DNA of 35,336 nucleotides from a virus. Position numbers and translations under genes: made by a program. Under the pieces are notes generated by a model, which saw nothing but the letters and a program-made list of their open reading frames with translations, was not told where the DNA came from and searched no databases. Where the stretch lies: the UHGV virus genome UHGV-0373725; one strand, written 5' to 3'. This document shows positions 1,827 through 16,720 of this stretch, piece by piece. Each line of letters begins with the position of its first letter. Position 1 is the first letter of the stretch.

Positions 1827-2393
1827 TCAGCGCACCTGCAGCGAACGTTCGCCAATCTCAAGGTGAGCGCCCGGCACTGGGTTTAACAGTTCTTCCGGTA
1901 TCTCTCCGCCGTCAGCGGTAATCTGGGCCGCCGCTGCCTGTGCTGATTCAATCGCTTCCTTGATGGCTTTCTTGTCCGGAGTGACTAACGTCTGAACTGT
2001 CACTAATTCATCCGGCAGTAATTCATCATTATCGATCACGACGTTTATAGCTCCCTTACGTGCGGTAAAGGTATTTTTGGCGGTTTTAACCGTATCCTGA
2101 CCGGCGGCCAGTAGACACTGGAGAACATATTTCTTCAGGTTCGTGATCTTACCTTCGAATGATTTTTTGCGGGCGGCAAGGCGTTTGGCCTCTTCATCGC
2201 AGGTTTTTGCCAGGCCTTCCAGATTGCGAACGTGGACGAAAACGGCATCCAGTTTATCGCCGAGTTGTAACTCAAGACCTTCCATTGTGTCGGCGATCAT
2301 TTCAGGAGACAGACCAGCACCGTCTTCGTTTTCCAGTAGTGCCTGGAGTTTTGACATATCGGCTGCGATAGCAATTGCAGTGGTGGAAGTCAT
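1827..2393 (-). CDS. Siphovirus Gp157-family protein (recombination-module accessory protein)
   Basis: 188 aa, acidic helical N-terminus, family-like composition; ATGA start/stop overlap with the upstream annealing-protein gene, so co-transcribed. Confidence 0.55.
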   Translation of the reverse strand: MTSTTAIAIAADMSKLQALLENEDGAGLSPEMIADTMEGLELQLGDKLDAVFVHVRNLEGLAKTCDEEAKRLAARKKSFEGKITNLKKYVLQCLLAAGQDTVKTAKNTFTARKGAINVVIDNDELLPDELVTVQTLVTPDKKAIKEAIESAQAAAAQITADGGEIPEELLNPVPGAHLEIGERSLQVR

Positions 2394-4543: not shown

Positions 4544-4555
4544 TGGTCTTTCCTC
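4541..4555 (-). promoter_or_regulatory. Conserved translation-initiation cassette GAGGAAAGACCAATG at the annealing-protein gene, preceded by a GGCGC-gtgacct-GCGCC hairpin
   Basis: Read directly on the minus strand. Confidence 0.6.
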
Positions 4556-4587
4556 TTGGTTACTGGCGCAGGTCACGCGCCGGTTAA

Positions 4588-5374: not shown

Positions 5375-5420
5375 TAAAAAAAGGCAATGCATTGAAAACA
5401 TTGCCTTTAATTTATTTTTT
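5375..5420 (-). terminator. Terminator immediately downstream of the repressor gene (hairpin flanked by A-run and T-run, possibly bidirectional)
   Basis: AAGGCAATG-cattgaaaa-CATTGCCTT with flanking A7 and T-rich runs. Confidence 0.55.
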
Positions 5421-5825
5421 TGGAGTGTTTTTTTTCTTTTTTACCAAAAGTAACTCATCAAACAATCGCTGGAATCCGTCAACTTTATCTTTCAACTCAT
5501 TGATATGTCTATCTTTTTCTGATTCAGGTAGAGAATCAAAAAGATCAAGCAGTAGCTTTTGGCGATCATCTAACCGAGGTAAAAGCTCTTCTGCCTTCAA
5601 CGGTTCATCGCTATCGGTACCGTTAAGTAACCATGTCGGAGAGCAACGAAGAGCCTCAGCGAGAGAAAACAGATTTTGCCCTTTTGGGGTGTTAATACCT
5701 GCTTCCCACTTGTAAACGCTGACGCCAGATATGCCAACGGCATCGGCGAGCTGCTGTTGTGTCAAACCAAGCTCTTTCCGTCTCGATGTAATGCGATCGT
5801 TAAAGGTCAATTTTTTCATATCCAT
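5412..5825 (-). CDS. Phage repressor, XRE-family helix-turn-helix (CI / RacR-like); no LexA-type S24 peptidase domain
   Basis: 137 aa; HTH LTQQQLADAVGISGVSVYKWEAG; divergent from a Cro-like gene; no Shine-Dalgarno, TATATT immediately upstream of the ATG (possible leaderless mRNA). Confidence 0.8.
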   Translation of the reverse strand: MDMKKLTFNDRITSRRKELGLTQQQLADAVGISGVSVYKWEAGINTPKGQNLFSLAEALRCSPTWLLNGTDSDEPLKAEELLPRLDDRQKLLLDLFDSLPESEKDRHINELKDKVDGFQRLFDELLLVKKKKNTPKK

Positions 5826-6153: not shown

Positions 6154-6600
6154 GTGGAATACCTCGAAGAACTTAAACGAGAGATCTTTAACTGGGCAGC
6201 GGAAAGCGGGCAGGAGCTGGTTGCTATCGAGATAAGCCGCATGTGGTTTCGTCTTGGTGGTAATACCGGTTCGCTGAAGCTGCACCAGATCGAAGATGCA
6301 GATGGAAACGCCGACTGGCGGGCAATCAACAACAACCGCCAACAAATTTTTCGTTGGTTGCGAGGCGAGACCAAAGCCGCGAGAGCCAAAACTCTGGCGC
6401 TGGTCAAAGCGATGGAAGCGGCGCTGCCGGCAGAACGTTACGCGCGCTTGGGTATGTCCACCCAGTATTTAATTTGTGTGGCCATTCGTGAGTTTGCCGC
6501 GGCGATTATCGCGTTATTACTCGACGCCAGAGACGGGCCGCAGCAAGTCGCCAGAGCATTGCAAGCTATGCGAGAAACACAGCGCCTGACCAGCGTTTAA
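6154..6600 (+). CDS. CII-like / YdaT-family regulator (tentative)
   Basis: 148 aa, GTG start with CAGGAG Shine-Dalgarno; position after the Cro-like gene and motif ...FRWLRGETK... recalled from YdaT-like proteins. Confidence 0.5.
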   Translation: MEYLEELKREIFNWAAESGQELVAIEISRMWFRLGGNTGSLKLHQIEDADGNADWRAINNNRQQIFRWLRGETKAARAKTLALVKAMEAALPAERYARLGMSTQYLICVAIREFAAAIIALLLDARDGPQQVARALQAMRETQRLTSV

Positions 6601-6608
6601 CCTGTACC

Positions 6609-6623
6609 GAGGAAAGACCAATG
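6609..6623 (+). promoter_or_regulatory. Conserved translation-initiation cassette GAGGAAAGACCAATG, preceded by a GCGCctgaccaGCG hairpin and TTAACC
   Basis: Read directly; identical 15-mer at 9249 and 17807. Confidence 0.6.
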
Positions 6624-6842
6624 AGAACACAAGACCGCATCACCTGGCGGAACGGGTTTCGCCGGAACGGGGTACAAGTCCCGATGGAAGATATCGAATC
6701 GATTTTCGAGGAACGTCGCGCTACTGCGCTGACAATCTGGGAACGCTACGAACTGCGCAAGGCAGACCTGCAGGAAGCGGGACTTACCCAGAAAGAATAC
6801 GAAATCGCCTGCCGTCAGCTGGCTGACTCGCTGGGGATCTGA
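6621..6842 (+). CDS. Hypothetical protein (73 aa)
   Basis: ORF starting in the conserved cassette; no recognisable motif. Confidence 0.5.
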   Translation: MRTQDRITWRNGFRRNGVQVPMEDIESIFEERRATALTIWERYELRKADLQEAGLTQKEYEIACRQLADSLGI

Positions 6843-6844
6843 GT

Positions 6845-7837
6845 ATGAATATTTTGCCATTACTCGACAGGCCGATCGCCTTCCAGCGCAGTTTTATTCG
6901 TCTGGATATTGGTGTGACGGCTGCGCTGTTTCTATCACAAATGACCTACTGGACTAACCGGTCCGACGATGACGGATGGGTGTATAAAACTCAGGAAGAA
7001 TGGGAAGAAGAAACCGGCCTTTCCCGCTATGAGCAGGAGGGGGCGCGTAAGAAACTCCGCTCAATTGGTGTACTACTGGAAAAAAGAAAAGGCGTTCCTG
7101 CGCGACTTTTCTACAAAGTAGATAATAACGTTTTATATCAGGTGCTTGCAGCTGCAAACAAGAATGCGGAAAAACCACATACTGGAATGCGGAAAACCAC
7201 CAAACAAGTCAGGGGAAAACCAGCAAACTTTCTTACAGAGAATACTACAGAGAATATATATACCCCTAACCCCTTAGAGGAGGAAGGCGTTGAGTTAATT
7301 CTTTCTGATGCACAAAAAGCGCTGGAATTTTACAACGAGCAAACCGGTACCCGCTGCCGTGACCTGAAACCGTTTGTGATGATGCTGACGCCGACCACCA
7401 CCCGGGAAGGGTACACACTGGACGAATTGCAGTTAGTTATCCGCTGGGTGCTGGCCACATGGCGCCGCCGTGGCGATAGCCTGCCGAAGCCAGCGAACAT
7501 CTGCCGGGTAAACCGCTTTGATGGTTATCTCGCTGACGCTGAAGCATGGGCGGTGACCGAAACCGATATTGATCCGGAAGCCGTTATGAACGGCTACAAC
7601 GAAATTTTTGCTGATGTTCTGCCCGCTGCTGAATTGGACACAGACCGCCGCCGGATGATCACCCGTCTGGCCGCCCATATGAAAAACAAAACCACGGGCG
7701 CATTTCTGGGCTATTTCGAAAAATTCCGCGCTGACGCCTCCGATTTTTACTTTGGTGAAAATGGCGGATGGCGCGCCAGCTTTGACTACCTGATGAAGCC
7801 TGAAACATTGCGTAAAACTCGTGAGGGATCGCTATGA
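6845..7837 (+). CDS. Phage replisome organiser / replication initiation protein (O-like, tentative)
   Basis: 330 aa; position immediately upstream of the helicase gene with ATGA overlap; N-terminal winged-helix-like region. Confidence 0.55.
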   Translation: MNILPLLDRPIAFQRSFIRLDIGVTAALFLSQMTYWTNRSDDDGWVYKTQEEWEEETGLSRYEQEGARKKLRSIGVLLEKRKGVPARLFYKVDNNVLYQVLAAANKNAEKPHTGMRKTTKQVRGKPANFLTENTTENIYTPNPLEEEGVELILSDAQKALEFYNEQTGTRCRDLKPFVMMLTPTTTREGYTLDELQLVIRWVLATWRRRGDSLPKPANICRVNRFDGYLADAEAWAVTETDIDPEAVMNGYNEIFADVLPAAELDTDRRRMITRLAAHMKNKTTGAFLGYFEKFRADASDFYFGENGGWRASFDYLMKPETLRKTREGSL

Positions 7838-9222
7838 CTCCGCAGGAACTGGAATCTTGTGTACTGGCTGGACTGCTGAACGGTGGAGCAAGTCCGGACG
7901 CTTTCGACGTGATCGCATCGACGCCTGAAGAATCATTCAGCATTGTTTTTCATCGTCGCGCCTTCTCGGAAATCAAAAAACAGGCGTTGACGAACGGTCT
8001 GATCGATATGCTGTTTGTCAGTGAGGCTCTGGGAGGGAGTAGCCTGGCTGATTTATCAGAGATTTCGCGTATGCCCGCCACGGTACCAAACCTGAAAGGT
8101 TACGCCGGGAAAATGGTGAAGGCGTGGCGCAGCCGCCGTATGGCTGAATTACTGCAAAATGGTGCTGATGGTATCCGCCAGGCGAATAATCAGGAGCAGC
8201 GCGATGAGATTGTCGAAACTGCCGTGGCGCAGCTGCTGGACATGACCGGCGACACTGGCGACGTGCAGCCGGTACACATGAGCGAATTATTGCCGGTGTA
8301 CATGGAAACCATGCAGAAGCGCATGGACGGCGAAGAGGGTACTCGCAACCTGAAAACCGGGATCGAGGAACTTGACGATGCGACCGGCGGAATCAACCTG
8401 CAGGATTTGATTGTCGTCGCTGGGCGTCCGGGCATGGGAAAAACAGAATTTGCGCTGAAGATTGTCGATGGTGTTACCGCTGCTGGCGGTGGCGCGTTGA
8501 TATTCAGCATGGAAATGGCCGCTGCGCAAATCGTAGAACGCGCTCTAGCGGGTTCTGGCAACATGTCAGTGTCACGCCTGCGTAATCCCCTCGATATGCA
8601 GGACGAGGACTGGGCGCGCTTTACAGCGGCCATGGAGACCATGAACGGGCGCGATATCTGGATCGTTGATGCTACCGATCTGACGATTGAGCAAATCCGC
8701 GCCGTTGCCGAAACGCATAAGCGCCGGTATCCGCATCTGGCGATGATCGTTGTCGATTACCTTGGCCTGATTAAAAAACCGAAGGCAGAGCGTAACGACC
8801 TCGCGATCGCCCACATATCCCGAAACTTAAAAACTATGGCTATGCGCCTGCATACGCCGACGTTCGCGCTTAGCCAGCTTTCCCGCGCCGTGGATTCCCG
8901 CCCGGCGGCCCAGCGCCGCCCGGTCATGTCAGACCTGCGCGATTCCGGTTCCATTGAGCAGGACGCCGACAGCATCATGTTTCTGTACCGCGATGAGGTT
9001 TACAACCCGGAAAGCCCGGCGGCTGGCGTCGCTGAAATTATCCTGGGTAAAAGCCGCTTCAGCGCCGCAGGCGCAATTATTTATCAGGAATTTAAAAACG
9101 GACACTTTCTGTCAATGGATCAGCATGTTGGCAAAGAGAAAACACGTATCCAACTGGAGGCCGCGAAACCCCGGAAACAACCCCGTAAATACTCAGAGAA
9201 ATTCAATACCGATGCATTTTAA
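7834..9222 (+). CDS. Replicative DNA helicase, DnaB family
   Basis: Walker A GRPGMGKT; DnaB C-terminal motifs (SQLSRAVDSR, DLRDSGSIEQDADSIMFLYRDE). Confidence 0.9.
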   Translation: MTPQELESCVLAGLLNGGASPDAFDVIASTPEESFSIVFHRRAFSEIKKQALTNGLIDMLFVSEALGGSSLADLSEISRMPATVPNLKGYAGKMVKAWRSRRMAELLQNGADGIRQANNQEQRDEIVETAVAQLLDMTGDTGDVQPVHMSELLPVYMETMQKRMDGEEGTRNLKTGIEELDDATGGINLQDLIVVAGRPGMGKTEFALKIVDGVTAAGGGALIFSMEMAAAQIVERALAGSGNMSVSRLRNPLDMQDEDWARFTAAMETMNGRDIWIVDATDLTIEQIRAVAETHKRRYPHLAMIVVDYLGLIKKPKAERNDLAIAHISRNLKTMAMRLHTPTFALSQLSRAVDSRPAAQRRPVMSDLRDSGSIEQDADSIMFLYRDEVYNPESPAAGVAEIILGKSRFSAAGAIIYQEFKNGHFLSMDQHVGKEKTRIQLEAAKPRKQPRKYSEKFNTDAF

Positions 9223-9248: not shown

Positions 9249-9263
9249 GAGGAAAGACCAATG
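9249..9263 (+). promoter_or_regulatory. Conserved translation-initiation cassette GAGGAAAGACCAATG, preceded by a CGCGC-ctgacca-GCGCG hairpin
   Basis: Read directly. Confidence 0.6.
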
Positions 9264-9929
9264 ACCACGAATTTAAATTACCCAAAACCAGTAAAACCGG
9301 ATGATGGCTGCAACTGGCTCCCCGTTATTCTCTGGCGCATGAATGCCGGTGCGCGCGCCCGTAGCCGTTCCGTGTTCGTAGCGGCGCCACGTCCGGCCCC
9401 TGTACCAGGCATCACCCCGCAAAAACCGATTAAGCGAGAAATTATCGCCCCTACGGTTTCCGGCCGCAGGCGTAAAACCCACATCGGCACCGTGATTTAT
9501 TCCAGAGGTGAAAAAAGCGTTCGCCTTAGCGAAGGCGCGACTGTCTGGTCTGCTGGCTCAAATGAGCATTTCGATAAAAAAACGGGCCAGCGCGTCGGCA
9601 GTATTGGTCGTCACCGTCTGGTGCTGGAGAGTATCCGCCCATTGCAGGCCAGCGACGCACAACAGGACGCCGGGAGCGTCACCGCGCAGCAACTGGTAGC
9701 CGTGATGAAAGGCAAAACGCTTTCTTACCAGGGCATTCTGGCATTAATCCAGAAGCACTATCCCGATTGTCAGGTGACGACTAAAGAACTTCACGATCGC
9801 GTGTTCGGCATGTTCATGTCGAATTACGTGGGTATCACCCGTCACGACGATATGCCGGTGGTTCACTTCACGCTTAACAGCGTCGATCCCCGTTATTACA
9901 TCGAGTCAGCGAAGAACAAGAGGGCATAA
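9261..9929 (+). CDS. Hypothetical protein (222 aa)
   Basis: ORF with the conserved cassette; basic Pro/Arg-rich N-terminal region; no recognised domain. Confidence 0.55.
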   Translation: MTTNLNYPKPVKPDDGCNWLPVILWRMNAGARARSRSVFVAAPRPAPVPGITPQKPIKREIIAPTVSGRRRKTHIGTVIYSRGEKSVRLSEGATVWSAGSNEHFDKKTGQRVGSIGRHRLVLESIRPLQASDAQQDAGSVTAQQLVAVMKGKTLSYQGILALIQKHYPDCQVTTKELHDRVFGMFMSNYVGITRHDDMPVVHFTLNSVDPRYYIESAKNKRA

Positions 9930-9932
9930 GGC

Positions 9933-10166
9933 ATGGCCGGGCAATCAGATTACTTGCCGCCCGGCTTACCGCTTAATCGCGCCAAATGGCCGCAGGAGTG
10001 CCAGATCAAAGAGCACTACGACATGCGGGCCGCGGCACTCATACGCCAGCTGTTCGAGAAAAAAGTTACTCGACAGGCCATCGTAGAGCAGATTGCAGCG
10101 ACGCCGGAAAGCTACCGGGAGTTTTTCAAAGAACGATTAAATTTTTGGCGGGAGAAGCGGACATGA
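9933..10166 (+). CDS. Hypothetical protein (77 aa)
   Basis: ORF with plausible ribosome-binding site, tightly packed in the operon. Confidence 0.45.
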   Translation: MAGQSDYLPPGLPLNRAKWPQECQIKEHYDMRAAALIRQLFEKKVTRQAIVEQIAATPESYREFFKERLNFWREKRT

Positions 10167-10333
10167 AATTTTCAACACCTGATTTTATGCATTGCAGCCG
10201 CAGGACGCTGATGCTGTTCGTACTCAGTGCAAACGTTGTTGGCTGGATAGTCATTATCGCTCTGATATGGGCTGGATGTGAGGTTGCACAGTGGGCGCTG
10301 GAATGTCTCCGCAGTAGTGGGGTGCTTGCGTGA
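10164..10333 (+). CDS. Small putative membrane protein (56 aa)
   Basis: Internal ATG with GGAGAAG Shine-Dalgarno; one hydrophobic segment (LMLFVLSANVVGWIVIIALIWAG); stop overlaps the next gene's GTG start. Confidence 0.35.
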
Positions 10334-10920
10334 ATAACAAATACACCCTGATTTATGCGGATCCTCCATGGACTTACCGCGACAAAGCCAAAGACGGGGA
10401 ACGCGGCGCCGGGCACAAATACCAGACCATGACTGTGCTCGATATCTGCCGTCTCCCGGTCTGGGAACTGGCCGCTGAAAACTGCCTGCTGGCTATGTGG
10501 TGGGTACCGACTCAGCCGCTGGAGGCGTTGCGAGTAGTCGAGGCGTGGGGCTTCCGTCTGATGACCATGAAAGGCTTTACGTGGAACAAATGCTACAGCC
10601 GGCAGACCGACAAACTGGCCCTTGGAATGGGCCATTTGACCAGGGCGAACAGCGAGGATTGCCTTTTCGCTGTGCAGGGGAAATTACCCGCCCGGATGGA
10701 TGCAGGGATCGTTCAGTCATTCACGGCCCCGCGTCTGGAGCATTCGCGCAAACCGGATATCGTGCGCGAAAAGCTGGTGCAGCTGCTGGGCGATGTGCCG
10801 CGTATTGAGTTATTCGCCCGCCAGTCGTCGCATGGTTTCGACGTGTGGGGCAATCAGTGTGAGTCGCCAGCGGTGGCGCTGCTGCCGGGCATTGCAGAAT
10901 ATATCGGGGAGGTAGCCTAA
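10330..10920 (+). CDS. DNA N6-adenine methyltransferase, MT-A70 family (orphan, no cognate restriction enzyme evident)
   Basis: DPPW catalytic motif (LIYADPPWTY) near the N-terminus; size typical of phage MT-A70 methyltransferases. Confidence 0.85.
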   Translation: MNNKYTLIYADPPWTYRDKAKDGERGAGHKYQTMTVLDICRLPVWELAAENCLLAMWWVPTQPLEALRVVEAWGFRLMTMKGFTWNKCYSRQTDKLALGMGHLTRANSEDCLFAVQGKLPARMDAGIVQSFTAPRLEHSRKPDIVREKLVQLLGDVPRIELFARQSSHGFDVWGNQCESPAVALLPGIAEYIGEVA

Positions 10921-10922
10921 CC

Positions 10923-11153
10923 ATGAAAAACACTATTCAGGATTTAATGAATCACCAGTTCGCCATGCTGGAAACCGTCACCGATCCCAATATCAAAGGC
11001 GACCTGCTTCAGGAAGAGTTATCGAGGGCTAAAGCGGTAGTGGAAATCGTCGGGGTGATGGTCGGTACTTATCGAGTTGCGCTCGACGCCCAGAAGGCTA
11101 TTTATGACGGTACCGCAGGCAATGTACCTAAGATTATGGGGATCGAAAAATGA
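10923..11153 (+). CDS. Hypothetical protein (76 aa)
   Basis: ORF with GGAGG Shine-Dalgarno. Confidence 0.5.
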   Translation: MKNTIQDLMNHQFAMLETVTDPNIKGDLLQEELSRAKAVVEIVGVMVGTYRVALDAQKAIYDGTAGNVPKIMGIEK

Positions 11154-11767
11154 TAGAGAAATACACTCCAGCCCAGGAGTTGTTTATCAAGCAGCATATT
11201 AAAAGCTCCACTGCGCGGGAATTAACTGAAATGTTTAACGCTAAATTTGGTACAAATAAGAGCGTGGGCGCTATTCGTATCTGGTGCAAATCTCATGGGT
11301 TAGGAAAGCAGTTTTTAATTGAGCCGCGCTATTCCGATGAGCAGCTGACTTTCATTTATGCCAATAGGAATCTAACGAATGCTGAACTTACAGAAAGGTT
11401 CAACAGGAGATTCGGTACCGATAAAAAACCTGACAATATCAAGGATGTAAAGATAGCTCGCGGATGGACACGCGAACCTAAAGGCCGGAAACGCATTCTT
11501 CCACAGTACATCACTGTTAATAAAGAGAAAATTAGACTCGATGTATACGTATATGAATGCGTACATGGAAAATTACCGTCTGGTTATTCGGTTATCCATC
11601 TGGATAATGATTTGAATAACAACAATATCAATAATCTACGCGCGGCACCTAAAGAAATACGCCGCCTGTTCTCTGGGGCGGGCTACTCAAAAATGCCGCA
11701 GGTTCTTGCTCCGGCGCTGTATGCACAAGTTATGCTCCGCCATGCAATTAAACGATTATCCAGCTAA
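11150..11767 (+). CDS. HNH homing-type endonuclease with two N-terminal repeated modules
   Basis: HNH-like motif (YECVHGKLP...HLDNDLNNNNINNL); duplicated ~45-aa N-terminal modules; markedly AT-rich compared with flanking genes. Confidence 0.6.
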   Translation: MIEKYTPAQELFIKQHIKSSTARELTEMFNAKFGTNKSVGAIRIWCKSHGLGKQFLIEPRYSDEQLTFIYANRNLTNAELTERFNRRFGTDKKPDNIKDVKIARGWTREPKGRKRILPQYITVNKEKIRLDVYVYECVHGKLPSGYSVIHLDNDLNNNNINNLRAAPKEIRRLFSGAGYSKMPQVLAPALYAQVMLRHAIKRLSS

Positions 11768-11779
11768 CTGAGGTGGTTA

Positions 11780-12118
11780 ATGGCTAAATCATCCGCAGAA
11801 CGTAAAGCCGCGCAGAGGGCGCGGCAATCTGCCGCCGGCAACCGCAAAATTGAGCTGGTTCTCGATACGCAGGAACTGGACATGCTGGCGCATAACTGCG
11901 CCGCCCGGCGTCCGGGGCGTGAACCGTACGAACTGGCCGAGTACATCGCTATGCTGATCCGTCAGGATGATGCGCGGCTTAGTGGCCACATCAAATCGAT
12001 CAGCAAACGTCTGTGTAGAAAATGCGGTGAGACGCTGCCGATCACCTCCTGCCCGTGTGCTGGTGATTCGCAATGCTGGGTAACGCGAGGGTGGCACGAA
12101 ACCAAACTGTCAGCATAG
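11780..12118 (+). CDS. Hypothetical protein with C-terminal zinc-ribbon-like Cys cluster
   Basis: 112 aa; CRKCGETLPITSCPCAGDSQC; Shine-Dalgarno GAGGTGG. Confidence 0.5.
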   Translation: MAKSSAERKAAQRARQSAAGNRKIELVLDTQELDMLAHNCAARRPGREPYELAEYIAMLIRQDDARLSGHIKSISKRLCRKCGETLPITSCPCAGDSQCWVTRGWHETKLSA

Positions 12119-12143
12119 CGAACAACCATACCAGTTAAAACAG

Positions 12144-12170
12144 AACCGTCAGAAATGGCGGTTTTCTTTT
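12144..12170 (+). terminator. Weak terminator-like hairpin with T-rich tail
   Basis: AACCG-tcagaaatgg-CGGTT followed by TTCTTTT. Confidence 0.35.
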
Positions 12171-12300
12171 GAATTCAATCGGATATTTTGAGATTTATTG
12201 TTGATTTTTAACGATTCGTGCTCTTAAAAATTTGCGCTCACTGTCAGTTGGTAGTATATATACTGTAATTTTATACAGTATTGTTGTTGAGGGAGAGGTA

Positions 12301-12492
12301 GTGGTTGATAAGAAAGACGCAGGAGACCTTCTCCCCGACGATGGTGATGTACTGATAACGTGTGAAAATGGGAAGATTAAGAAGACCAGAATTGTCCATT
12401 CCGATGAGCACGTAGCGACACTTAACGCGTTGTTTGAATTAGCTAAATTGACGGGTTATACCATTATCAAACCAGACGGCAATATGCTATAA
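12301..12492 (+). CDS. Small hypothetical protein in an AT-rich island (probable GTG start)
   Basis: GAGGGAGAGG Shine-Dalgarno then GTG; promoter-like TTGCGC-N18-TATATA upstream; low GC. Confidence 0.35.
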   Translation: MVDKKDAGDLLPDDGDVLITCENGKIKKTRIVHSDEHVATLNALFELAKLTGYTIIKPDGNML

Positions 12493-12560
12493 TTACCCCG
12501 TTGGCCTGAACACCCAACACCATGTAATTCTGAACAATTGCTGCGCTAAAGGGGAACCCA

Positions 12561-13157
12561 ATGGCGCAGTATTCTTTTGTAAAAGCACCCGGCGGTGTAT
12601 TAATTCCGGCAACGCCTGACGCCCGCGAATTCTTAGAAAAAAAAGTCCGCATGGGCGGTATTCTGTATGCGGATTTTAAACAGGCAAGGAACTCGGCATT
12701 TCACCGTAAATTTTTTGCCCTCCTGAATCTGGGATTTGATTACTGGCAACCTTCCGGCGGTGCAATATCGCCAGCCGATAAAAAACTGGTTCGGGGTTAC
12801 GTGCAGCTGGTGGCCCACTATGCCGGGCATGGCGACACATTGCAGGAACTGGCGGATCAGTATCTGCGCGATGAGGCAGAAAAACGCGCCGGCAATATCA
12901 GCGCGGTTAAATCGTTTGAAGCTTTCCGTTCCTGGGTAACTATCGAGGCCGGTTTTTATACCGAATACCAGATGCCTGATGGCACCACCCGCAAGGAACC
13001 CAAATCCATATCGTTCGCAAAAATGGACGATGTAGAATTTTCCCAGCTGTACAAATCCGTATTAGACGTCCTCTGGAATTTTATTTTATTCCGCACCTTC
13101 CCTAATCAGCAGGCAGCAGAAAACGCAGCCTCTCAGCTTTTCAGTTATGCGGCCTGA
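12561..13157 (+). CDS. Hypothetical phage protein (198 aa), possibly NinB/Orf-like or DUF1367-like (tentative)
   Basis: Shine-Dalgarno AAGGGG; motif FHRKFFALLNLG loosely resembles the NinB QNRKLWACLG region; family assignment not verified. Confidence 0.5.
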   Translation: MAQYSFVKAPGGVLIPATPDAREFLEKKVRMGGILYADFKQARNSAFHRKFFALLNLGFDYWQPSGGAISPADKKLVRGYVQLVAHYAGHGDTLQELADQYLRDEAEKRAGNISAVKSFEAFRSWVTIEAGFYTEYQMPDGTTRKEPKSISFAKMDDVEFSQLYKSVLDVLWNFILFRTFPNQQAAENAASQLFSYAA

Positions 13158-13167
13158 GGCGGACACT

Positions 13168-13644
13168 ATGAAATTCAATATTCGCTCTCATATCGTCGAG
13201 ATGGATGAGGCCGACGCCTTGATCTTTGTGGGTTACCCCATCCACATCGGCTCGAATGGTTATGCAAAAGTCACCGGCTGGCATTTTGGCAAGGAAAGAT
13301 ACCTTCATCGCGTCATCATGAATGCGGGGCCTCATGATGTTGTAGATCACATTGATGGTAATAAGCTCAACTGCACCCGCTCAAATCTGAGGATCTGCAC
13401 ACAGGCCGACAATACCAAAAATGTGGGCTTGAGGAGTGACAATAGCTCAGGAATTCCGGGAATTTACTGGGTATCCACTCGCCTAAAATGGGCGGCGCAA
13501 ATTTCAGTTGATGGCAGGACCGTTAGTTTAGGCCGCTTTGATGAAATTGCCGATGCTATCAATGCCCGCCGGAAAGCAGAAGATTTGTATTACGGGGAGT
13601 TTGCAGCCAGCAAGGGGGTGCTTTGTGAAAAAGCGCGCCAGTAA
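13168..13644 (+). CDS. HNH endonuclease with AP2-type DNA-binding domain
   Basis: HNH motif (HRVIMN...HIDGNKLNCTRSNLRICTQADNTKN) followed by an AP2-like segment (IPGIYWV...KWAAQISVDGRTVSLGRFDEIADAINARRKAE). Confidence 0.75.
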   Translation: MKFNIRSHIVEMDEADALIFVGYPIHIGSNGYAKVTGWHFGKERYLHRVIMNAGPHDVVDHIDGNKLNCTRSNLRICTQADNTKNVGLRSDNSSGIPGIYWVSTRLKWAAQISVDGRTVSLGRFDEIADAINARRKAEDLYYGEFAASKGVLCEKARQ

Positions 13645-13939
13645 ATCAGATAAGCAATATTTCCAAGATCTCGTTGAGATAGGTTGTATTGTCTGCAAAG
13701 TACACTTCGGCGTGTACTCCGCCCCCGAAATCCATCACATCCGAACCGGTCAGGGCATAGCCCAGCGCGCCGACCACAAAGAAACTCTCCCGCTTTGCCC
13801 GCCACACCACAGAACCGGCGGACACGGCGTAGCTATCCACGCAGGGCAAAAAACATGGGAAGAAAACTACGGCACGGAGACTGAATTGCTCGAACAGGTC
13901 ACTAACGAGATAAAGGAATTACGTCTATGCAGAATTTAA
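13625..13939 (+). CDS. Putative Cys/His-rich zinc-binding phage nuclease (YbcO/Ref-like, tentative)
   Basis: GTG start overlapping the upstream stop; CIVCK...EIHHIRTG...LPLCPPHHR...HGVAIH pattern. Confidence 0.4.
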   Translation: MKKRASKSDKQYFQDLVEIGCIVCKVHFGVYSAPEIHHIRTGQGIAQRADHKETLPLCPPHHRTGGHGVAIHAGQKTWEENYGTETELLEQVTNEIKELRLCRI

Positions 13940-14091
13940 TTCCGTCTCTAAGAGCAGCAGATAACGCTAAAAAATGCGGTTGGCCAGCACGTGCGGAAAG
14001 CATGAAATTCTGTTCAGGCTCCTTTTCCATTCTGGCGGGCGGCGATTTTGCCCTTCTCTATGCTCGCGCACGCGCGCGTTTAGGGGGCTGA
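13927..14091 (+). CDS. Possible small ORF (54 aa), not in the ORF track
   Basis: ATG overlapping the upstream stop (ATGcagaatTTAA) and ending 3 nt before the next start; fills an otherwise empty gap. Confidence 0.3.
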   Translation: MQNLIPSLRAADNAKKCGWPARAESMKFCSGSFSILAGGDFALLYARARARLGG

Positions 14092-14094
14092 ATT

Positions 14095-14391
14095 ATGCCG
14101 CTGGTCGCCACCTTCCGTACAGACTGGTTCAGAGTCATTACCGACCTGACCCGAAAAAATCTCACCACTCAGCAAATCGCCGATGAACTTGGCGTTTCAA
14201 AATCCGCCGTCCTCGGCTGGAAATCTGGATCAGAGCCTCGCCATGGTCACGGTGAAGCGCTGATTGCTCTCTGGTGTCTGGCTACCAGCTCAGACCGTAA
14301 AAAACTCCCCACAGTGCTTTACCGCCAGTGGTGGACGTTCCGCCGCCCTGTTTTTGGTCGGGAAACTGACCAGAAGGGCAACACACAATGA
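14095..14391 (+). CDS. HTH-containing protein, candidate late-gene regulator (function unknown)
   Basis: 98 aa; HTH-like LTTQQIADELGVSKSAVLGW; sits at the junction between the accessory region and the virion module. Confidence 0.5.
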   Translation: MPLVATFRTDWFRVITDLTRKNLTTQQIADELGVSKSAVLGWKSGSEPRHGHGEALIALWCLATSSDRKKLPTVLYRQWWTFRRPVFGRETDQKGNTQ

Positions 14392-14418
14392 CGACTCACT
14401 AATACAGGAGTGAAAAAA

Positions 14419-14859
14419 ATGGTTCGACCGAAAAAAATCGTTGAGATGCCGGGGCAGGAAAAAGCGGCGCCGGAAGAAAAAACGTTCGTTACAGAGGGGC
14501 AGTTAATTACTGCTGAACAGACCGGCGCGCAGCAGCAGGGTAGCGATAGCGACGAACAGACCGTGCAGCAGAATGTTTCAACCCTGCTTGATGGTACTCA
14601 GTTGGCAGAACGTAACGCCATTCTAGCCACACTCAACGCGCAGGGCGCTGCGATCGTTGCCCGCTTCGAAGAGTACGGCTTCACCGACACTATCGGCCAC
14701 CCGCTGACCAACTGTCTCGATTTCCTCAGTCTGGTACGCAAAGCCACTGATGTAAGCACTGGCGGCACAGCGGAGCAGGTGACAAACGAGGAAGGCAAAA
14801 AGCAACCCGTACGCAGTGCGCCGGTATTAACCGAACACGGCTGGCACGTTCCGGGCTAA
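14419..14859 (+). CDS. Hypothetical protein (146 aa), possibly virion-associated
   Basis: AGGAG Shine-Dalgarno 8 nt upstream of the ATG; acidic/Gln-rich; position just before the gp6.7-like and portal genes. Confidence 0.5.
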   Translation: MVRPKKIVEMPGQEKAAPEEKTFVTEGQLITAEQTGAQQQGSDSDEQTVQQNVSTLLDGTQLAERNAILATLNAQGAAIVARFEEYGFTDTIGHPLTNCLDFLSLVRKATDVSTGGTAEQVTNEEGKKQPVRSAPVLTEHGWHVPG

Positions 14860-14869
14860 GGAGAATTTT

Positions 14870-15091
14870 ATGTGTGGTAGCGCACCAAAAGTTGTTCAGT
14901 CAGACCCGCAGGCCGAAGCCGACGCAGCAGCAGACGCAGCGGCCAAAGCTGCGAACGCTGACGCAGCAGCGCGCAAAAAGCGCAAACAGGGATCATCCCT
15001 GCTGGCCAGCGGCGCAGAAGGCGCAACGGATACAGGTTCTTCCCTGCTGTCCACTGGCGCACAGGCCGCAAAAAATACGTTAGGGGCTTAA
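14870..15091 (+). CDS. T7 gp6.7-like small virion protein
   Basis: N-terminus MCGSAPKVV compared with T7 gp6.7 MCFSPKIKT; AAGGAG Shine-Dalgarno; immediately upstream of the portal gene. Confidence 0.45.
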   Translation: MCGSAPKVVQSDPQAEADAAADAAAKAANADAAARKKRKQGSSLLASGAEGATDTGSSLLSTGAQAAKNTLGA

Positions 15092-15094
15092 TTC

Positions 15095-16720
15095 ATGGAT
15101 CAACTCGCCAGCCGGTTAATCAGGCGCGCTGACACGCTGAAAGCAAATCGCCAGGTGCACGAAAGCGTCTGGCGGGAATGCTACGACTACACCTATCCGC
15201 TGCGCGGGGCCGGGTTTTCGTCTGAGGTGCTGGACGCACAGAGCGCAAAGCACAAGGTTGCGAAGCTGCTGGACGGCACAGCCACCGACAGCGCCCGTAT
15301 GCTGGCGTCCGCGCTTATGTCAGGGATGACCCCGGCGAATGCTCAATGGCTGAACCTCGACAGCGAATTACTTCCTGATGACGCTAAGGCGTGGTTGTCC
15401 ACCTGTGCAACGCTGGTATGGGAAAATATCCACGCCGCTAACTTTGACGCGGAAGGGTACGAGGCCAATCTCGATGTGGTCTGTGCTGGCTGGTTCGCGC
15501 TGTACGTCGATGAGGACAAGGAAGAGGGAGGATTTACCTTCCAGCAGTGGCCGCTGGCGCAATGCTTTGTGACTTCCACCCGCCGGGATGGCATCGTGGA
15601 CACGATTTATCGGTGCTATCAGCTCACCGCTGAACAGGCAGTGAAAGAATTCGGCGCGGACAAGGTAAGCGAAAAAATCCGCGATGCTGCAAAAAACAAA
15701 CCTGACGATAAATTTGATTTCCTGCACTGCATTTTCCCGCGTGATACCTACGCCGTAAATGCGAAGCTGGCGCGCAATATGCGTTTTGCATCGTTCAACG
15801 TGGAAGTGAACGGCAAGCGTATCGTGCGTGAATCCGGCTATCACGAATTCCCTGTGTGCGTCCCGCGCTGGATGAAAATTCCCGGCGGCTCCTACGGTAT
15901 CGGCCCGGTATACGACGCGCTGCCGGACTGCAAAGAGCTGAACGAAACCAAACGCATGGAGAAGGCCGCGCAGGATCTGGCTATCTCCGGTATGTGGATT
16001 GCTGAGGATGACGGCGTGCTCAACCCGCGAACGGTAAAAGTTGGCCCGCGCCGCGTCATCGTGGCGAACAGCACCGAAAGCATGAAACCTTTGCTCACCG
16101 GCGCAGATTTCAACGTGGCGTTTACCGCTGAACAGCGCCTGCAGGCTTCCATTCGCAAAATCATGATGGCCGATCAGTTGCAACCGCAGGACGGCCCGGC
16201 AATGACTGCTACCGAAGTGCATGTGCGTGTCGCGCTGATCCGCCAGTTGCTTGGCCCGGTCTATGGACGATTCCAGGCTGAATACCTGCAACCGCTGGTG
16301 GAGCGCTGCTTCGGTATTGCGTTCCGCGCTGGCGTTTTTCCTCCCGCTCCCGAGAGCCTCCAGAGCGCCAATTTCAACGTGCGTTATATCTCCCCGCTGG
16401 CCCGTGCGCAGAAGCTGGAAGATGTGACCGCCATCGAGCGATACGGCCAGAACATCATGCAGCTGGCGCAGGCGTACCCGGATGTACTGGACAACATGGA
16501 CAGCGACGAGGCGAGCAAGGTTGTCGGCGAGGCTCTTGGCGTTCCGGCAAAAGTTATGCGTTCCGCTGATGCGGTCGAGCAACTTCGACAGCAGCGCCAG
16601 CAGATGCAACAGCAGCAGGCGCAACAGCAGTTGCTGATGCAGGCCGGGACGGAAGCCGCCGGCGCAGCAGGGCAGGCAGCAGGCGCAATTATGGGACAAC
16701 GACTGGCGGGCAACCAATGA
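15095..16720 (+). CDS. Portal (head-to-tail connector) protein, T7 gp8-like
   Basis: 541 aa; collinear resemblance to T7 gp8 including the Gln/Ala-rich C-terminal tail. Confidence 0.85.
   Translation: MDQLASRLIRRADTLKANRQVHESVWRECYDYTYPLRGAGFSSEVLDAQSAKHKVAKLLDGTATDSARMLASALMSGMTPANAQWLNLDSELLPDDAKAWLSTCATLVWENIHAANFDAEGYEANLDVVCAGWFALYVDEDKEEGGFTFQQWPLAQCFVTSTRRDGIVDTIYRCYQLTAEQAVKEFGADKVSEKIRDAAKNKPDDKFDFLHCIFPRDTYAVNAKLARNMRFASFNVEVNGKRIVRESGYHEFPVCVPRWMKIPGGSYGIGPVYDALPDCKELNETKRMEKAAQDLAISGMWIAEDDGVLNPRTVKVGPRRVIVANSTESMKPLLTGADFNVAFTAEQRLQASIRKIMMADQLQPQDGPAMTATEVHVRVALIRQLLGPVYGRFQAEYLQPLVERCFGIAFRAGVFPPAPESLQSANFNVRYISPLARAQKLEDVTAIERYGQNIMQLAQAYPDVLDNMDSDEASKVVGEALGVPAKVMRSADAVEQLRQQRQQMQQQQAQQQLLMQAGTEAAGAAGQAAGAIMGQRLAGNQ

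What the first reader, a model, noticed from the sequence alone, without database searches (positions are those of the whole stretch)
9261..14391. nin-like accessory region packed with nucleases, an orphan methyltransferase and unknowns, including two AT-rich islands
Between the helicase and the virion genes lie an MT-A70 adenine methyltransferase, two different HNH endonucleases (one AT-rich with duplicated N-terminal modules, one with an AP2 domain), a Cys/His-rich putative nuclease, a zinc-ribbon protein and several unknown ORFs, including ones too small for the ORF track. This is the region where lambdoid phages collect anti-restriction, recombination and superinfection-related cargo, so the unknowns (9261-9929, 9933-10333, 10923-11153, 11780-12118, 12301-12492, 12561-13157) are candidates for anti-defence or defence functions.
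Basis: partly seen in the sequence, partly recalled or inferred. Interest (0 to 1): 0.5.

Follow-up and report, generated by a model that had tools for sequence, protein, structure and literature searches.

The report
Prophage accessory region hiding SOS switch
This stretch of a Klebsiella-type prophage is an ordinary mosaic of replication helpers, a methyltransferase and two selfish nucleases, but one "unknown" small gene is most likely the DNA-damage-controlled antirepressor that wakes the prophage.

Summary
Three details are wrong. The span 9933-10333 holds two genes: a Pol III theta/Hot homologue and a 56-aa membrane protein. ORF 12561-13157 is IrsA/DUF1367.

ORF 12301-12492 is the main result. 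AT-rich island 2 is a control region, not foreign cargo. It holds an intrinsic terminator (12135-12172) and the window's only LexA box (12261-12280, perfect). A GTG-initiated 63-aa gene follows, then irsA and ref. The 63-aa protein falls in PHROG 340, as do Fels-1 FsoA and a GfoA orthologue, both from the experimentally defined Salmonella antirepressor group. The prophage repressor (5412-5825) is a short, non-cleavable GtgR-like protein. A perfect LexA core precedes 72 of 79 family copies in related loci.

AT-rich island 1 is an HNH gene that always travels with a 76-aa gene. The HNH-AP2 gene occurs in 4 of 56 relatives.

The slot between theta and the antirepressor is a real cargo hotspot. 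Relatives carry AbiL, C5 methyltransferases and nuclease-like genes there. No unknown ORF in this window matches a defence profile. Verdict: a new member of a known kind, of modest interest.

The parts
5412..5825 (-). Prophage repressor, outside the finding's coordinates. 137 aa, HTH_3 domain only, GtgR/GfoR-like and non-cleavable. Presumed target of the antirepressor.
   Evidence: Pfam finds HTH_3 at E 5e-16 and no Peptidase_S24. It is 33% identical (E 1e-12) to Gifsy-2 GtgR, including the C-terminal LLxLFxxLPExEK motif. That C-terminal ~50 aa is conserved across at least 5 N-terminal types in 42 relatives.
9261..9929 (+). 222-aa conserved backbone protein of unknown function, with a central beta domain and a C-terminal winged helix.
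   Evidence: phrog_4183 E 1e-123, no Pfam match. In the relatives whose fetched stretch includes dnaB, it lies between DnaB and theta in almost all. AF2 pLDDT is 75. Foldseek finds only generic winged-helix hits, best E 7e-3.
9933..10166 (+). Homologue of the DNA polymerase III theta subunit (P1 Hot-like).
   Evidence: phrog_1105 E 4e-29. Pfam PF06440 gives E 2e-4, below its cut-off. The only PDB hit is P1 Hot (1se7), E 0.11.
10163..10333 (+). 56-aa hydrophobic protein, probably membrane-located, translationally coupled on both sides (ATGA and GTGA overlaps).
   Evidence: phrog_2936 E 1e-8. Sequence read directly. Present in 15 of 54 relatives.
10330..10920 (+). MT-A70 family adenine methyltransferase with a DPPW motif. 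No restriction partner is nearby.
   Evidence: PF05063 E 2e-23; PADLOC MTase_II 7e-78. It is 78% identical to the Stx2a-phage gp5-type enzyme and to the epsilon15 methylase. Present in 35 of 54 relatives.
10923..11153 (+). 76-aa protein of unknown function (phrog_2044). Always found with the downstream HNH gene in this clade.
   Evidence: phrog_2044 E 7e-25. Co-occurs with the HNH gene in 24 of 24 loci. Homologues occur in Vibrio, Aeromonas, Staphylococcus and Streptococcus phages.
11150..11767 (+). AT-rich island 1: HNH_3 endonuclease with two tandem N-terminal modules. Probably a free-standing homing-type endonuclease.
   Evidence: PF13392 E 1e-9; phrog_1891 E 2e-41; GC 0.42; internal repeat E 1e-7.
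11780..12118 (+). 112-aa protein with a basic N-terminus and a C-terminal Cys cluster (zinc-ribbon-like). Last gene before the terminator.
   Evidence: phrog_536 E 2e-50, labelled 'transcriptional regulator'. 791 homologues, all named 'hypothetical'. Cys79/82/91/93/99 are invariant.
12135..12172 (+). Intrinsic-terminator-like hairpin with a T run, ending the upstream early operon.
   Evidence: The terminator scan places the stem at 12142-12165. RNA fold gives -15.8 kcal/mol, z = -4.3.
12232..12260 (+). Putative sigma-70 promoter (-35 TTGCGC, 17-nt spacer, -10 TATATA) directly abutting the LexA box. Inferred only.
   Evidence: Read from the sequence. It does not pass the consensus scan. Relatives show the same layout.
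12261..12280 (.). LexA (SOS) box TACTGTAATTTTATACAGTA.
   Evidence: It is the only match in the 35 kb window, even with 2 mismatches allowed. A perfect CTGT-N8-ACAG lies 15-53 nt upstream of 72 of 79 family copies, in 24 distinct sequence variants.
12301..12492 (+). 63-aa GfoA/FsoA-family small antirepressor with a GTG start. Forms AT-rich island 2 together with its control region.
   Evidence: phrog_340 E 5e-23. FsoA and a GfoA orthologue fall in the same PHROG, at E 1e-26 and 8e-21. hhalign probabilities are 97% and 89.5%. FsoA identity was fixed from published primers.
12561..13157 (+). IrsA / DUF1367 protein (PHROG label 'NinB/Orf-like'). Second gene of the SOS unit.
   Evidence: PF07105 E 1e-83. 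56% identical to Gifsy-1/2 STM2620/STM1020. A Rac record names the homologue irsA. It follows the antirepressor gene in 75 of 79 copies.
13147..13644 (+). HNH_3 (+AP2-like) homing-type endonuclease inserted between irsA and ref.
   Evidence: PF13392 E 2e-7; phrog_99 E 7e-42; weak match to I-HmuI. Present in 4 of 56 relatives. In most of the others the irsA-ref gap is 16-20 nt.
13625..13939 (+). Ref-family (RecA-dependent, HNH-type) nuclease.
   Evidence: PF16786 E 9e-14, above the cut-off. The RefSeq annotation of the relative reads 'Ref family recombination enhancement nuclease'.
14095..14391 (+). 98-aa HTH protein that co-varies with the virion (portal) module. Either a late regulator or a small terminase; unresolved.
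   Evidence: phrog_16553 E 2e-42. Only weak HTH and terminase-small Pfam hits. Found only in loci with the same portal type.

Best explanation
The region is the distal early region of a temperate Enterobacteriaceae (Klebsiella-type) phage. It has three layers.

(1) A conserved replication-associated backbone: DnaB, a 222-aa winged-helix protein, and a Pol III theta/Hot homologue.

(2) A variable cargo slot. In this window it holds a 56-aa membrane protein, an MT-A70 adenine methyltransferase, a 76-aa gene with an AT-rich HNH endonuclease, and a 112-aa zinc-ribbon-like protein. An intrinsic terminator closes the slot.

(3) A separate SOS-controlled transcription unit. A promoter overlapped by a perfect LexA box drives a 63-aa antirepressor of the GfoA/FsoA family. 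IrsA (DUF1367) and a Ref-family nuclease follow. A mobile HNH-AP2 endonuclease has inserted between irsA and ref.

Proposed mechanism:
- In the lysogen, host LexA keeps the unit silent.
- DNA damage activates RecA and LexA cleaves itself.
- The antirepressor is made and binds the short, non-cleavable GtgR-like repressor (5412-5825), probably through the C-terminal domain that heteroimmune relatives share.
- The repressor leaves its operators and lytic growth begins.

Shown here: the LexA box and its conservation, family membership with FsoA and GfoA, synteny, and the repressor type. Inferred: actual LexA binding, the protein-protein contact, and co-transcription of irsA and ref.
For: Control elements:
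- The LexA box is unique and perfect at 12261-12280.
- A terminator lies just upstream.

Family membership of the 63-aa protein:
- It matches phrog_340 at E 5e-23.
- Fels-1 FsoA also matches phrog_340, at E 1e-26. I identified FsoA from the primer sequences in Table S1 of PMC3121763. hhalign against the window family gives 97% probability.
- A GfoA orthologue, SEN34_55, matches phrog_340 at E 8e-21. It matches the published GfoA primers at both ends. hhalign gives 89.5%.

Synteny:
- The Gifsy layout is terminator, LexA box, (dinI), GUG/UUG-start antirepressor, irsA.
- The window has the same order without dinI.

Repressor:
- It has an HTH_3 domain only and is 33% identical to GtgR.

Comparative data:
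- 72 of 79 family copies have a perfect LexA core 15-53 nt upstream. There are 24 sequence variants whose spacers differ while the cores stay invariant.
- 75 of 79 copies are followed by irsA. This holds in Klebsiella, Raoultella, Serratia, Symbiopectobacterium and Escherichia.
- Repressors in 42 relatives have at least 5 different N-terminal types but one conserved C-terminal domain, while the antirepressor stays 95-100% identical.

Cargo slot and mobile HNH genes.
Against: - There is no experimental evidence for this phage.
- The 63-aa protein shows no pairwise similarity to GftA or Tum. hhalign against GftA gives only 7.6% probability.
- The AF2 model of the 63-aa protein is poor (pLDDT 61), so no structural support was obtained.
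- The promoter hexamers are weak; the -35 matches 3 of 6 positions and fails the consensus scan.
- FsoA itself is dispensable for induction of its own phage, so family membership does not prove that this copy is the induction trigger.
- The antirepressor does not co-vary with repressor N-terminal type. This fits a promiscuous antirepressor, but it would also fit a function unrelated to the repressor.
- The related loci are phylogenetically non-independent.
Confidence: 0.75

Rival explanations
1. One reading: the unknown ORFs are defence or anti-defence cargo, such as anti-restriction or superinfection exclusion genes collected in a nin-like region.
For: The slot is a real cargo hotspot. Relatives carry AbiLi/AbiLii, C5 methyltransferases, an endonuclease-effector-like gene and DUF2971 there. 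The MT-A70 enzyme could protect phage DNA. The 56-aa membrane protein, the 76-aa protein and the 112-aa protein remain without a function.
Against: None of the unknown ORFs gives a PADLOC hit. Three of the six listed unknowns are explained otherwise: theta/Hot, IrsA and the antirepressor. The 222-aa gene is backbone, not cargo. The 76-aa family is conserved across Gram-positive and Gram-negative temperate phages, which points to a core phage function. The 112-aa protein is present in 36 of 54 relatives at a fixed position.
Confidence: 0.2
2. The 63-aa LexA-controlled protein is not an antirepressor. Instead it is another SOS-phase factor, for example a modulator of RecA or recombination acting with IrsA and Ref, or a cell-division inhibitor or toxin. 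Induction would then depend on something else.
For: The gene sits in one unit with IrsA and a RecA-dependent nuclease homologue. It does not co-vary with the repressor's DNA-binding domain. FsoA is not needed for Fels-1 induction (PMC3121763). The structure model is uninformative.
Against: Two members of the same PHROG, GfoA and FsoA, were shown genetically and biochemically to inactivate repressors (PMC3121763). The repressor here is of the same non-cleavable family as their targets. No other LexA box and no S24 peptidase domain are available to couple this prophage to SOS.
Confidence: 0.12
3. The MT-A70 enzyme is not a DNA anti-restriction methylase. It would be an RNA (16S rRNA) methyltransferase that tunes prophage induction, as reported for its 78%-identical Stx-phage homologue.
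For: It is 78% identical to the Stx2a-phage gp5-type enzyme and shares the TLIYADPPWT(F/Y)RD motif. PMC10810198 reports that this enzyme, together with the small subunit PNB-2, methylates 16S rRNA and raises spontaneous induction.
Against: The window lacks a PNB-2 homologue. The upstream 56-aa protein is unrelated. The enzyme is the shorter form (196 aa against 208 aa), which that paper links to PNB-2-less strains. Without PNB-2 the Stx enzyme showed weak DNA activity.
Confidence: 0.25
4. The HNH endonucleases are functional phage components, for example helpers of terminase in cos cleavage or restriction-like nucleases paired with the methyltransferase, rather than selfish homing elements.
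For: The HNH-AP2 gene lies about 450 bp upstream of the packaging and virion block. HNH proteins next to terminases are needed for cos cleavage in some phages (my own background knowledge, not checked here). HNH1 lies about 230 bp downstream of the methyltransferase.
Against: HNH-AP2 is present in only 4 of 56 relatives, and in most of the others the irsA-ref junction is intact. HNH1 occurs without the methyltransferase in 1 locus, and the methyltransferase occurs without HNH1 in 12 loci. HNH1 has foreign base composition, GC 0.42. Both match homing-endonuclease profiles.
Confidence: 0.1

Closest known systems
Gifsy-1/Gifsy-3 GfoA/GfhA antirepressors with GfoR/GfhR repressors (Salmonella; Lemire et al. 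2011, PMC3121763)
   Same: Same PHROG (340) as a GfoA orthologue. LexA box in the promoter. A terminator lies just upstream. Non-canonical start codon. irsA lies immediately downstream. Position is downstream of the replication genes. The repressor is short, non-cleavable and HTH-only, with a similar C-terminal motif.
   Different: There is no dinI gene between the LexA box and the antirepressor. The protein is 63 aa rather than about 82 aa, with roughly 30% identity. The phage has a different virion module (T7-type head-tail connector portal, PF12236) and different downstream genes (Ref instead of NinG/Q).
Fels-1 FsoA antirepressor
   Same: This is the closest profile relative among characterised proteins: hhalign 97% probability and the same PHROG.
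   Different: FsoA lies in the early-left operon under the phage repressor, not under LexA. [quoted passage not shown]
Gifsy-2 GftA and coliphage 186 Tum
   Same: The logic is the same: a LexA-repressed small protein that inactivates a non-cleavable repressor. The Gifsy-2 locus has the same terminator, LexA box and irsA synteny.
   Different: No significant sequence similarity was found. BLASTP finds nothing, hhalign to GftA gives 7.6%, and the PHROGs differ (4847 and 189).
Stx-phage MT-A70 methyltransferase M.EcoPA8orf6770P with PNB-2 (PMC10810198), and the epsilon15 adenine methylase
   Same: 78% amino-acid identity, the DPPW motif, and no cognate restriction enzyme.
   Different: No PNB-2 partner gene. 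The protein is 12 residues shorter at the C-terminus. It sits in the early-right region rather than next to int and xis.
Phage P1 Ref (RecA-dependent nuclease) and P1 Hot (theta homologue)
   Same: The Ref-type HNH core matches (PF16786 above its cut-off). Theta/Hot-family membership is supported by PHROG, and P1 Hot is the only PDB hit.
   Different: The Ref homologue is about 104 aa and matches only the nuclease core. P1 Ref is longer (from memory, not checked here). The theta match is below the Pfam and NCBIfam cut-offs.
Free-standing HNH homing endonucleases (I-HmuI type)
   Same: HNH_3 domain, extra DNA-binding modules (an AP2-like domain or duplicated helical modules), intergenic insertion between conserved genes, and sporadic distribution.
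   Different: No cleavage site or homing has been demonstrated. HNH1 is always linked to a 76-aa upstream gene in this clade.

Membership tests
GfoA/FsoA small antirepressors (PHROG 340) | Sequence falls in the same profile family as the experimentally characterised members | tested here: met
   Window protein matches phrog_340 at E 5e-23. FsoA gives E 1e-26 and the GfoA orthologue E 8e-21. hhalign gives 97% and 89.5%.
GfoA/FsoA small antirepressors (PHROG 340) | LexA operator in the promoter (GfoA/GfhA type) | tested here: met
   Perfect box at 12261-12280, 20 nt before the GTG, and unique in the window. Conserved in 72 of 79 family copies. Actual LexA binding was not tested.
GfoA/FsoA small antirepressors (PHROG 340) | Locus layout: downstream of replication genes, preceded by a terminator, followed by irsA | tested here: met
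   Terminator at 12135-12172. irsA at 12561-13157, 56% identical to the Gifsy copies.
GfoA/FsoA small antirepressors (PHROG 340) | Cognate repressor is a short, non-cleavable GfoR/GtgR-type protein | tested here: met
   137 aa, HTH_3 only, no S24 domain. 33% identical to GtgR, E 1e-12.
GfoA/FsoA small antirepressors (PHROG 340) | Binds the repressor, releases it from DNA, and is required or sufficient for induction | not testable with these tools
   Needs genetics and biochemistry. The monomer AF2 model was poor, and no complex prediction was available.
Tum (coliphage 186) antirepressor/DinI fusion | Sequence similarity to Tum | tested here: not met
   BLASTP gives E 11. Tum falls in phrog_189, 1993 and others, not in phrog_340.
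MT-A70 (class beta) adenine methyltransferases | MT-A70 domain above the Pfam cut-off, with the DPPW catalytic motif | tested here: met
   83.6 bits against a cut-off of 23.9. The motif YADPPWTY was read.
MT-A70 (class beta) adenine methyltransferases | Substrate (DNA motif or rRNA) and orphan status | not testable with these tools
   No restriction-enzyme-like neighbour is present. The homologue in PMC10810198 methylates 16S rRNA with PNB-2, and PNB-2 is absent here.
HNH homing endonucleases | HNH_3 domain above the cut-off | tested here: met
   38.3 and 31.0 bits against a cut-off of 24.8.
HNH homing endonucleases | Sporadic presence at an otherwise conserved intergenic site | tested here: met
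   HNH-AP2 is in 4 of 56 relatives; in most of the rest the irsA-ref gap is 16-20 nt. HNH1 is in 24 of 54 relatives, but inside a generally variable slot.
HNH homing endonucleases | Cleaves the empty allele and promotes its own spread | not testable with these tools
   Requires in vitro cleavage or co-infection crosses.
Ref family RecA-dependent nucleases | RecA_dep_nuc domain above the cut-off | tested here: met
   51.9 bits against a cut-off of 26.9. RecA dependence was not tested.
DNA polymerase III theta / P1 Hot | Profile match to theta | tested here: inconclusive
   phrog_1105 gives E 4e-29. Pfam gives 21.4 bits against a cut-off of 34.6, and NCBIfam 17 bits against 97. P1 Hot is the only PDB hit, E 0.11.
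NinB/Orf recombination mediators | Homology of DUF1367/IrsA to lambda Orf | tested here: inconclusive
   Only the PHROG 319 label links them. The sequence search of PDB chains found no NinB/Orf entry and no other significant hit.
Known anti-phage defence systems (PADLOC) | Profile match of the unknown ORFs to a defence component | tested here: not met
   Ten proteins were scanned at E <= 0.1. Only the methyltransferase (MTase_II) and the HNH-AP2 gene (homing endonuclease) gave hits.

The most novel reading that the evidence does not exclude
The 63-aa antirepressor recognises the conserved C-terminal ~50-residue domain (LLxLFxxLPESEKxRHxxELKxKVxGFxxLFxELL). This domain is shared by at least five heteroimmune repressor types in Klebsiella, Raoultella, Serratia and related prophages. 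The protein would then act as a universal SOS 'master key'. One LexA-controlled gene could cross-induce co-resident prophages of different immunity. The modular repressor (variable HTH domain plus constant antirepressor-docking domain) would let immunity diversify without re-evolving the induction circuit.
Probability: 0.4. Interest if true: 0.5.

Novelty: new member of a known kind. Interest (0 to 1): 0.3.

Why it matters
Three points matter.

First, annotation. PHROG 340 is labelled 'unknown function', and every database name seen here for the window protein's close homologues is 'hypothetical protein'. Yet FsoA and a GfoA orthologue, from the antirepressor group characterised in 2011, fall in it. 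Recognising this lets the induction switch be annotated in many Klebsiella, Raoultella, Serratia and Escherichia prophages. It also predicts that these prophages are SOS-inducible without repressor cleavage, and possibly cross-inducible. That is relevant to antibiotic-triggered prophage induction in Klebsiella.

Second, interpretation of composition. An AT-rich island in a phage accessory region can be a promoter and operator region rather than foreign cargo.

Third, the hotspot. The comparative map defines a cargo slot, from theta to the terminator, that carries AbiL and methyltransferases in relatives. This slot is useful for mining defence genes, even though this window's own cargo is unremarkable.

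Tried and rejected
- Rfam and tRNA scans of the whole window found nothing.
- NCBIfam gave nothing beyond a weak theta hit.
- PADLOC found no defence hit for the unknowns.
- Pairwise BLASTP of the 63-aa protein against Tum and GftA found no similarity. I therefore first treated the Gifsy resemblance as analogy only. The link came later, through FsoA/GfoA and PHROG 340.
- Sequence searches of PDB chains were uninformative. The 63-aa family profile gave only chance HslV hits. The 222-aa, 112-aa, DUF1367 and HNH1 proteins gave nothing significant.
- The AF2 model of the 63-aa protein had pLDDT 61, so no fold search was attempted.
- The AF2 model of the 222-aa protein gave only generic winged-helix matches, best E 7e-3.
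- An exact search for the GfoA primer sequence in viral contigs found nothing. A megablast of the primer against phage records then found SEN34 and mEp237.
- I considered and rejected the methyltransferase plus HNH1 as a restriction-modification pair, because they occur independently in relatives.
- I considered and rejected strict antirepressor-repressor co-variation. The antirepressor stays 95-100% identical across repressors whose identity to the window repressor ranges from 34% to 100%.
- Papers on DUF1367 in Stx phages and on Gifsy-1 STM14_3218-3220 added nothing to this locus.

Full report
**What is there**

On the + strand, between the replicative helicase (7834-9222) and the portal gene (15095-16720), the ORF list and profile searches give this order:
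- 9261-9929: 222 aa, phrog_4183, no Pfam match.
- 9933-10166: Pol III theta/Hot homologue, phrog_1105 E 4e-29.
- 10163-10333: 56-aa hydrophobic protein, phrog_2936.
- 10330-10920: MT-A70 methyltransferase, PF05063 E 2e-23, DPPW motif.
- 10923-11153: 76 aa, phrog_2044.
- 11150-11767: HNH_3 endonuclease.
- 11780-12118: 112 aa, phrog_536.
- A 182-bp intergenic region.
- 12301-12492: 63 aa with a GTG start, phrog_340.
- 12561-13157: DUF1367, E 1e-83.
- 13147-13644: HNH_3 endonuclease with a sub-threshold AP2 match.
- 13625-13939: Ref-family nuclease, PF16786 E 9e-14.
- 14095-14391: 98-aa HTH protein.

The window contains no tRNA and no Rfam family.

- '9933-10333' is two genes in different frames, joined by an ATGA overlap.
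- 12561-13157 belongs to a named family (DUF1367/IrsA).
- The Ref-like gene most likely starts at GTG 13625.

The duplicated N-terminal modules of the first HNH protein are real (41% identity over 44 aa, E 1e-7). The 112-aa protein has five invariant cysteines across 118 homologues. Both AT-rich islands are real. HNH1 has GC 0.42, the intergenic region 12119-12300 has GC 0.34, and the 63-aa gene has GC 0.43. The window average is 0.52.

**The second AT-rich island is a control region**

- A hairpin with a T run at 12135-12172 looks like an intrinsic terminator. It folds at -15.8 kcal/mol with z = -4.3.
- At 12261-12280 lies TACTGTAATTTTATACAGTA, a perfect LexA box.
- This is the only match in 35 kb, even when two mismatches are allowed.
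- It sits directly after a TATATA hexamer and 20 nt before the GTG of the 63-aa gene.

**The prophage repressor cannot self-cleave**

The repressor (5412-5825, minus strand) is 137 aa. It has an HTH_3 domain and no S24 peptidase domain. It therefore cannot respond to RecA by self-cleavage in the way lambda CI does.

**Link to known antirepressors**

Lemire et al. (PMC3121763) described the Gifsy prophages. Their non-cleavable repressors are inactivated by small LexA-controlled antirepressors. The gene follows a terminator and a LexA box, starts with a non-canonical codon, and lies between dinI and irsA.

The window's DUF1367 protein is 56% identical to Gifsy-1/2 STM2620/STM1020. A Rac prophage record names that homologue irsA. 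The Gifsy-2 record shows terminator, LexA box, dinI, gftA (GTG start) and irsA in that order.

The window protein has no pairwise similarity to GftA or to Tum of phage 186. At that stage the resemblance was analogy only.

A more distant homologue from E. coli phage phi467 then hit a Fels-1 ORF. The primers in Table S1 of the paper encode MNSQQMM... and ...EAGIRFEEISNVG. These are the two termini of that ORF, so the ORF is FsoA.

- FsoA aligns to the window family profile with 97% hhalign probability, E 3e-11.
- The GfoA primers encode MSNSALQK... and ...RRLGYRVTPPSD.
- These led to Salmonella phage SEN34 gene 55, which lies in the layout terminator, LexA box, dinI, gene 55, irsA.
- That protein aligns to the window family at 89.5% probability.
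- FsoA, the GfoA orthologue and the window protein all fall in PHROG 340, at E 1e-26, 8e-21 and 5e-23.
[quoted passage not shown] All sequence-testable defining features of a GfoA-type module are met.

**Comparative support**

One genome scan and one viral-contig scan with the family alignment returned 72 loci. Adding the earlier loci and the window gives 79 family copies.

| Feature | Count |
|---|---|
| Perfect CTGT-N8-ACAG 15-53 nt upstream of the start | 72 of 79 |
| Distinct sequence variants of that box | 24 |
| irsA 70-88 nt downstream | 75 of 79 |

In those 24 variants the spacers differ while the core positions stay invariant.

The seven copies without a box are:
- two cut off by contig ends;
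- one where an IS110 has inserted upstream (E. coli 23GD11002);
- phi467;
- a Rouxiella copy;
- two second copies.

The pattern holds in the 40%-identity Escherichia branch and in Serratia and Symbiopectobacterium. The loci are related, so the counts are not independent events. The invariant cores beside variable spacers are still what selection on a LexA site would produce.

A profile search of 1.84 billion representatives found 67 clusters. Most are 55-100 aa. A few carry the domain at the C-terminus of 180-290-aa proteins. That agrees with the weak matches to the C-termini of the 'anti-repressor' families phrog_4792 and phrog_2379.

**Repressor modularity**

In 42 relatives the repressors are 128-154 aa. 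They have at least five unrelated N-terminal HTH types but a shared C-terminal ~50 residues. The antirepressor stays 95-100% identical across these types. This matches the promiscuity reported for GfoA and GfhA. It suggests, as an inference only, that the conserved C-terminal domain is the docking site.

**The rest of the region**

DnaB, the 222-aa protein and theta are a fixed backbone in the relatives. The AF2 model of the 222-aa protein (pLDDT 75) shows a beta domain and a C-terminal winged helix. Fold matches are only generic.

Between theta and the antirepressor lies a variable slot of 1.4-5.6 kb. Among 54 relatives that span it:
- 35 carry the MT-A70 gene.
- 24 carry the 76-aa gene together with HNH1, always as a pair.
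- 36 carry the 112-aa gene.

Other relatives carry different cargo in this slot:
- AbiLi/AbiLii, on the opposite strand, in 5 loci including phages BUCT708 and BUCT709.
- C5 methyltransferases of 650-754 aa, in 7 loci.
- A ParB-HTH protein, in 17 loci.
- An HNH_5 protein.
- A protein with a CBASS-effector-like endonuclease domain.
- DUF2806 and DUF551 proteins.
- DUF2971 plus IS110.

In this window, PADLOC matched only the methyltransferase and, as a homing endonuclease, the HNH-AP2 gene.

HNH-AP2 occurs in 4 of 56 relatives. In most of the others irsA and ref are 16-20 nt apart, and one relative has an IS5-like element at that spot. This is the signature of a mobile endonuclease.

The MT-A70 enzyme is 78% identical to the Stx2a-phage gp5-type enzyme. 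One paper reports that this enzyme methylates 16S rRNA together with a small partner, PNB-2 (PMC10810198). The window lacks that partner, so the substrate is open.

The 76-aa family occurs in Vibrio, Aeromonas, Staphylococcus and Streptococcus phages. It carries a doubtful 'RNA polymerase beta subunit' label.

**How it most likely works**

The early-right operon runs cro, cII, repO, dnaB, the backbone, the cargo and the 112-aa gene, and ends at the terminator. The next unit is silent in the lysogen because LexA occupies the box at the promoter.

DNA damage removes LexA. The antirepressor accumulates and sequesters the GtgR-like repressor, and lytic transcription starts.

IrsA and the Ref-type nuclease lie downstream with no strong terminator between them. 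They are probably made at the same time, when RecA filaments, the cofactor of Ref-type nucleases, are present.

Shown: sequence elements, family membership, synteny and conservation. Inferred: LexA binding, the protein contact and co-transcription.

**Verdict**

The most informative feature is a new member of a known kind of module, the LexA-controlled GfoA/FsoA-type antirepressor. It sits in a family that PHROGs still lists as unknown. Nothing here is categorically new. Interest is modest.

Noticed in passing
window 13927-14091: The ~155-bp gap between ref and the 98-aa HTH gene contains a 54-aa ORF whose start overlaps the ref stop. It is open in all relatives that have this virion module. 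Its substitutions are largely non-synonymous, for example S/F/L/P/Y at a single position. It may be a conserved DNA element (late promoter or packaging site, with GC-rich hairpins at 14034-14053) rather than a gene.
   Followed up: partly
window 12464-12493: This is the best sigma-70-like match in the region (TTATCA, 18-nt spacer, TATAAT with an upstream TG; 10 of 12 positions). It lies at the 3' end of the antirepressor gene, just upstream of irsA. The intergenic motif GGCCTGAACA(A/C)C is shared with the Gifsy-2, SEN34 and E. coli relatives. irsA may have its own promoter or a conserved leader.
   Followed up: no
PHROG 340; loci L080:2438-2674 and L082:1310-1558: PHROGs v4 labels family 340 'unknown function'. 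Yet it contains Fels-1 FsoA and a GfoA orthologue, which belong to the antirepressor group characterised experimentally in 2011. The FsoA ORF and the SEN34 GfoA orthologue are both annotated 'hypothetical protein' in their phage records. This is an annotation gap.
   Followed up: yes
window 5412-5825 and repressors of 42 related loci: The repressors are modular. They have at least five unrelated N-terminal HTH domains, implying different immunities. All are fused to one conserved C-terminal ~50-residue domain, which Gifsy-2 GtgR also shares.
   Followed up: partly
window 10923-11153: The 76-aa protein family (phrog_2044) is conserved across temperate phages of Vibrio, Aeromonas, Staphylococcus and Streptococcus. 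It carries a propagated label, 'RNA polymerase beta subunit', which is implausible for a 76-aa protein.
   Followed up: partly
L001 (OM816834 BUCT708) and OM816835 (BUCT709): These two 'Stenotrophomonas maltophilia' phages share 85-96% protein identity over the whole early region with Klebsiella-type prophages. They also carry an enterobacterial-type LexA box. The stated host looks doubtful. They carry AbiLi/AbiLii in the cargo slot.
   Followed up: no
L002 (E. coli 23GD11002, locus 6227-9135) and L069 8924-9892: IS elements have hit this module. In L002, an IS110 and a DUF2971 gene lie upstream of the antirepressor gene and the LexA box is absent, which predicts a prophage that SOS cannot induce. 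In L069, an IS5-like transposase sits exactly in the irsA-ref gap, the same site that the HNH-AP2 gene occupies elsewhere.
   Followed up: partly
window 14095-15091 versus related loci: The 98-aa HTH protein, the 149-aa protein and the 73-aa protein co-vary with the portal type. They are present with the 84-99%-identity portals and absent from loci whose portal is only 28% identical. No large terminase gene lies between ref and the portal in this window, so the packaging genes must be arranged unusually or lie elsewhere.
   Followed up: no
window 2393-4576 (minus strand): A 727-aa early-left protein has no Pfam match. It lies next to a Sipho_Gp157 homologue (1827-2393) and the integrase (185-1201). 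It is the largest unexplained gene seen in the window.
   Followed up: no
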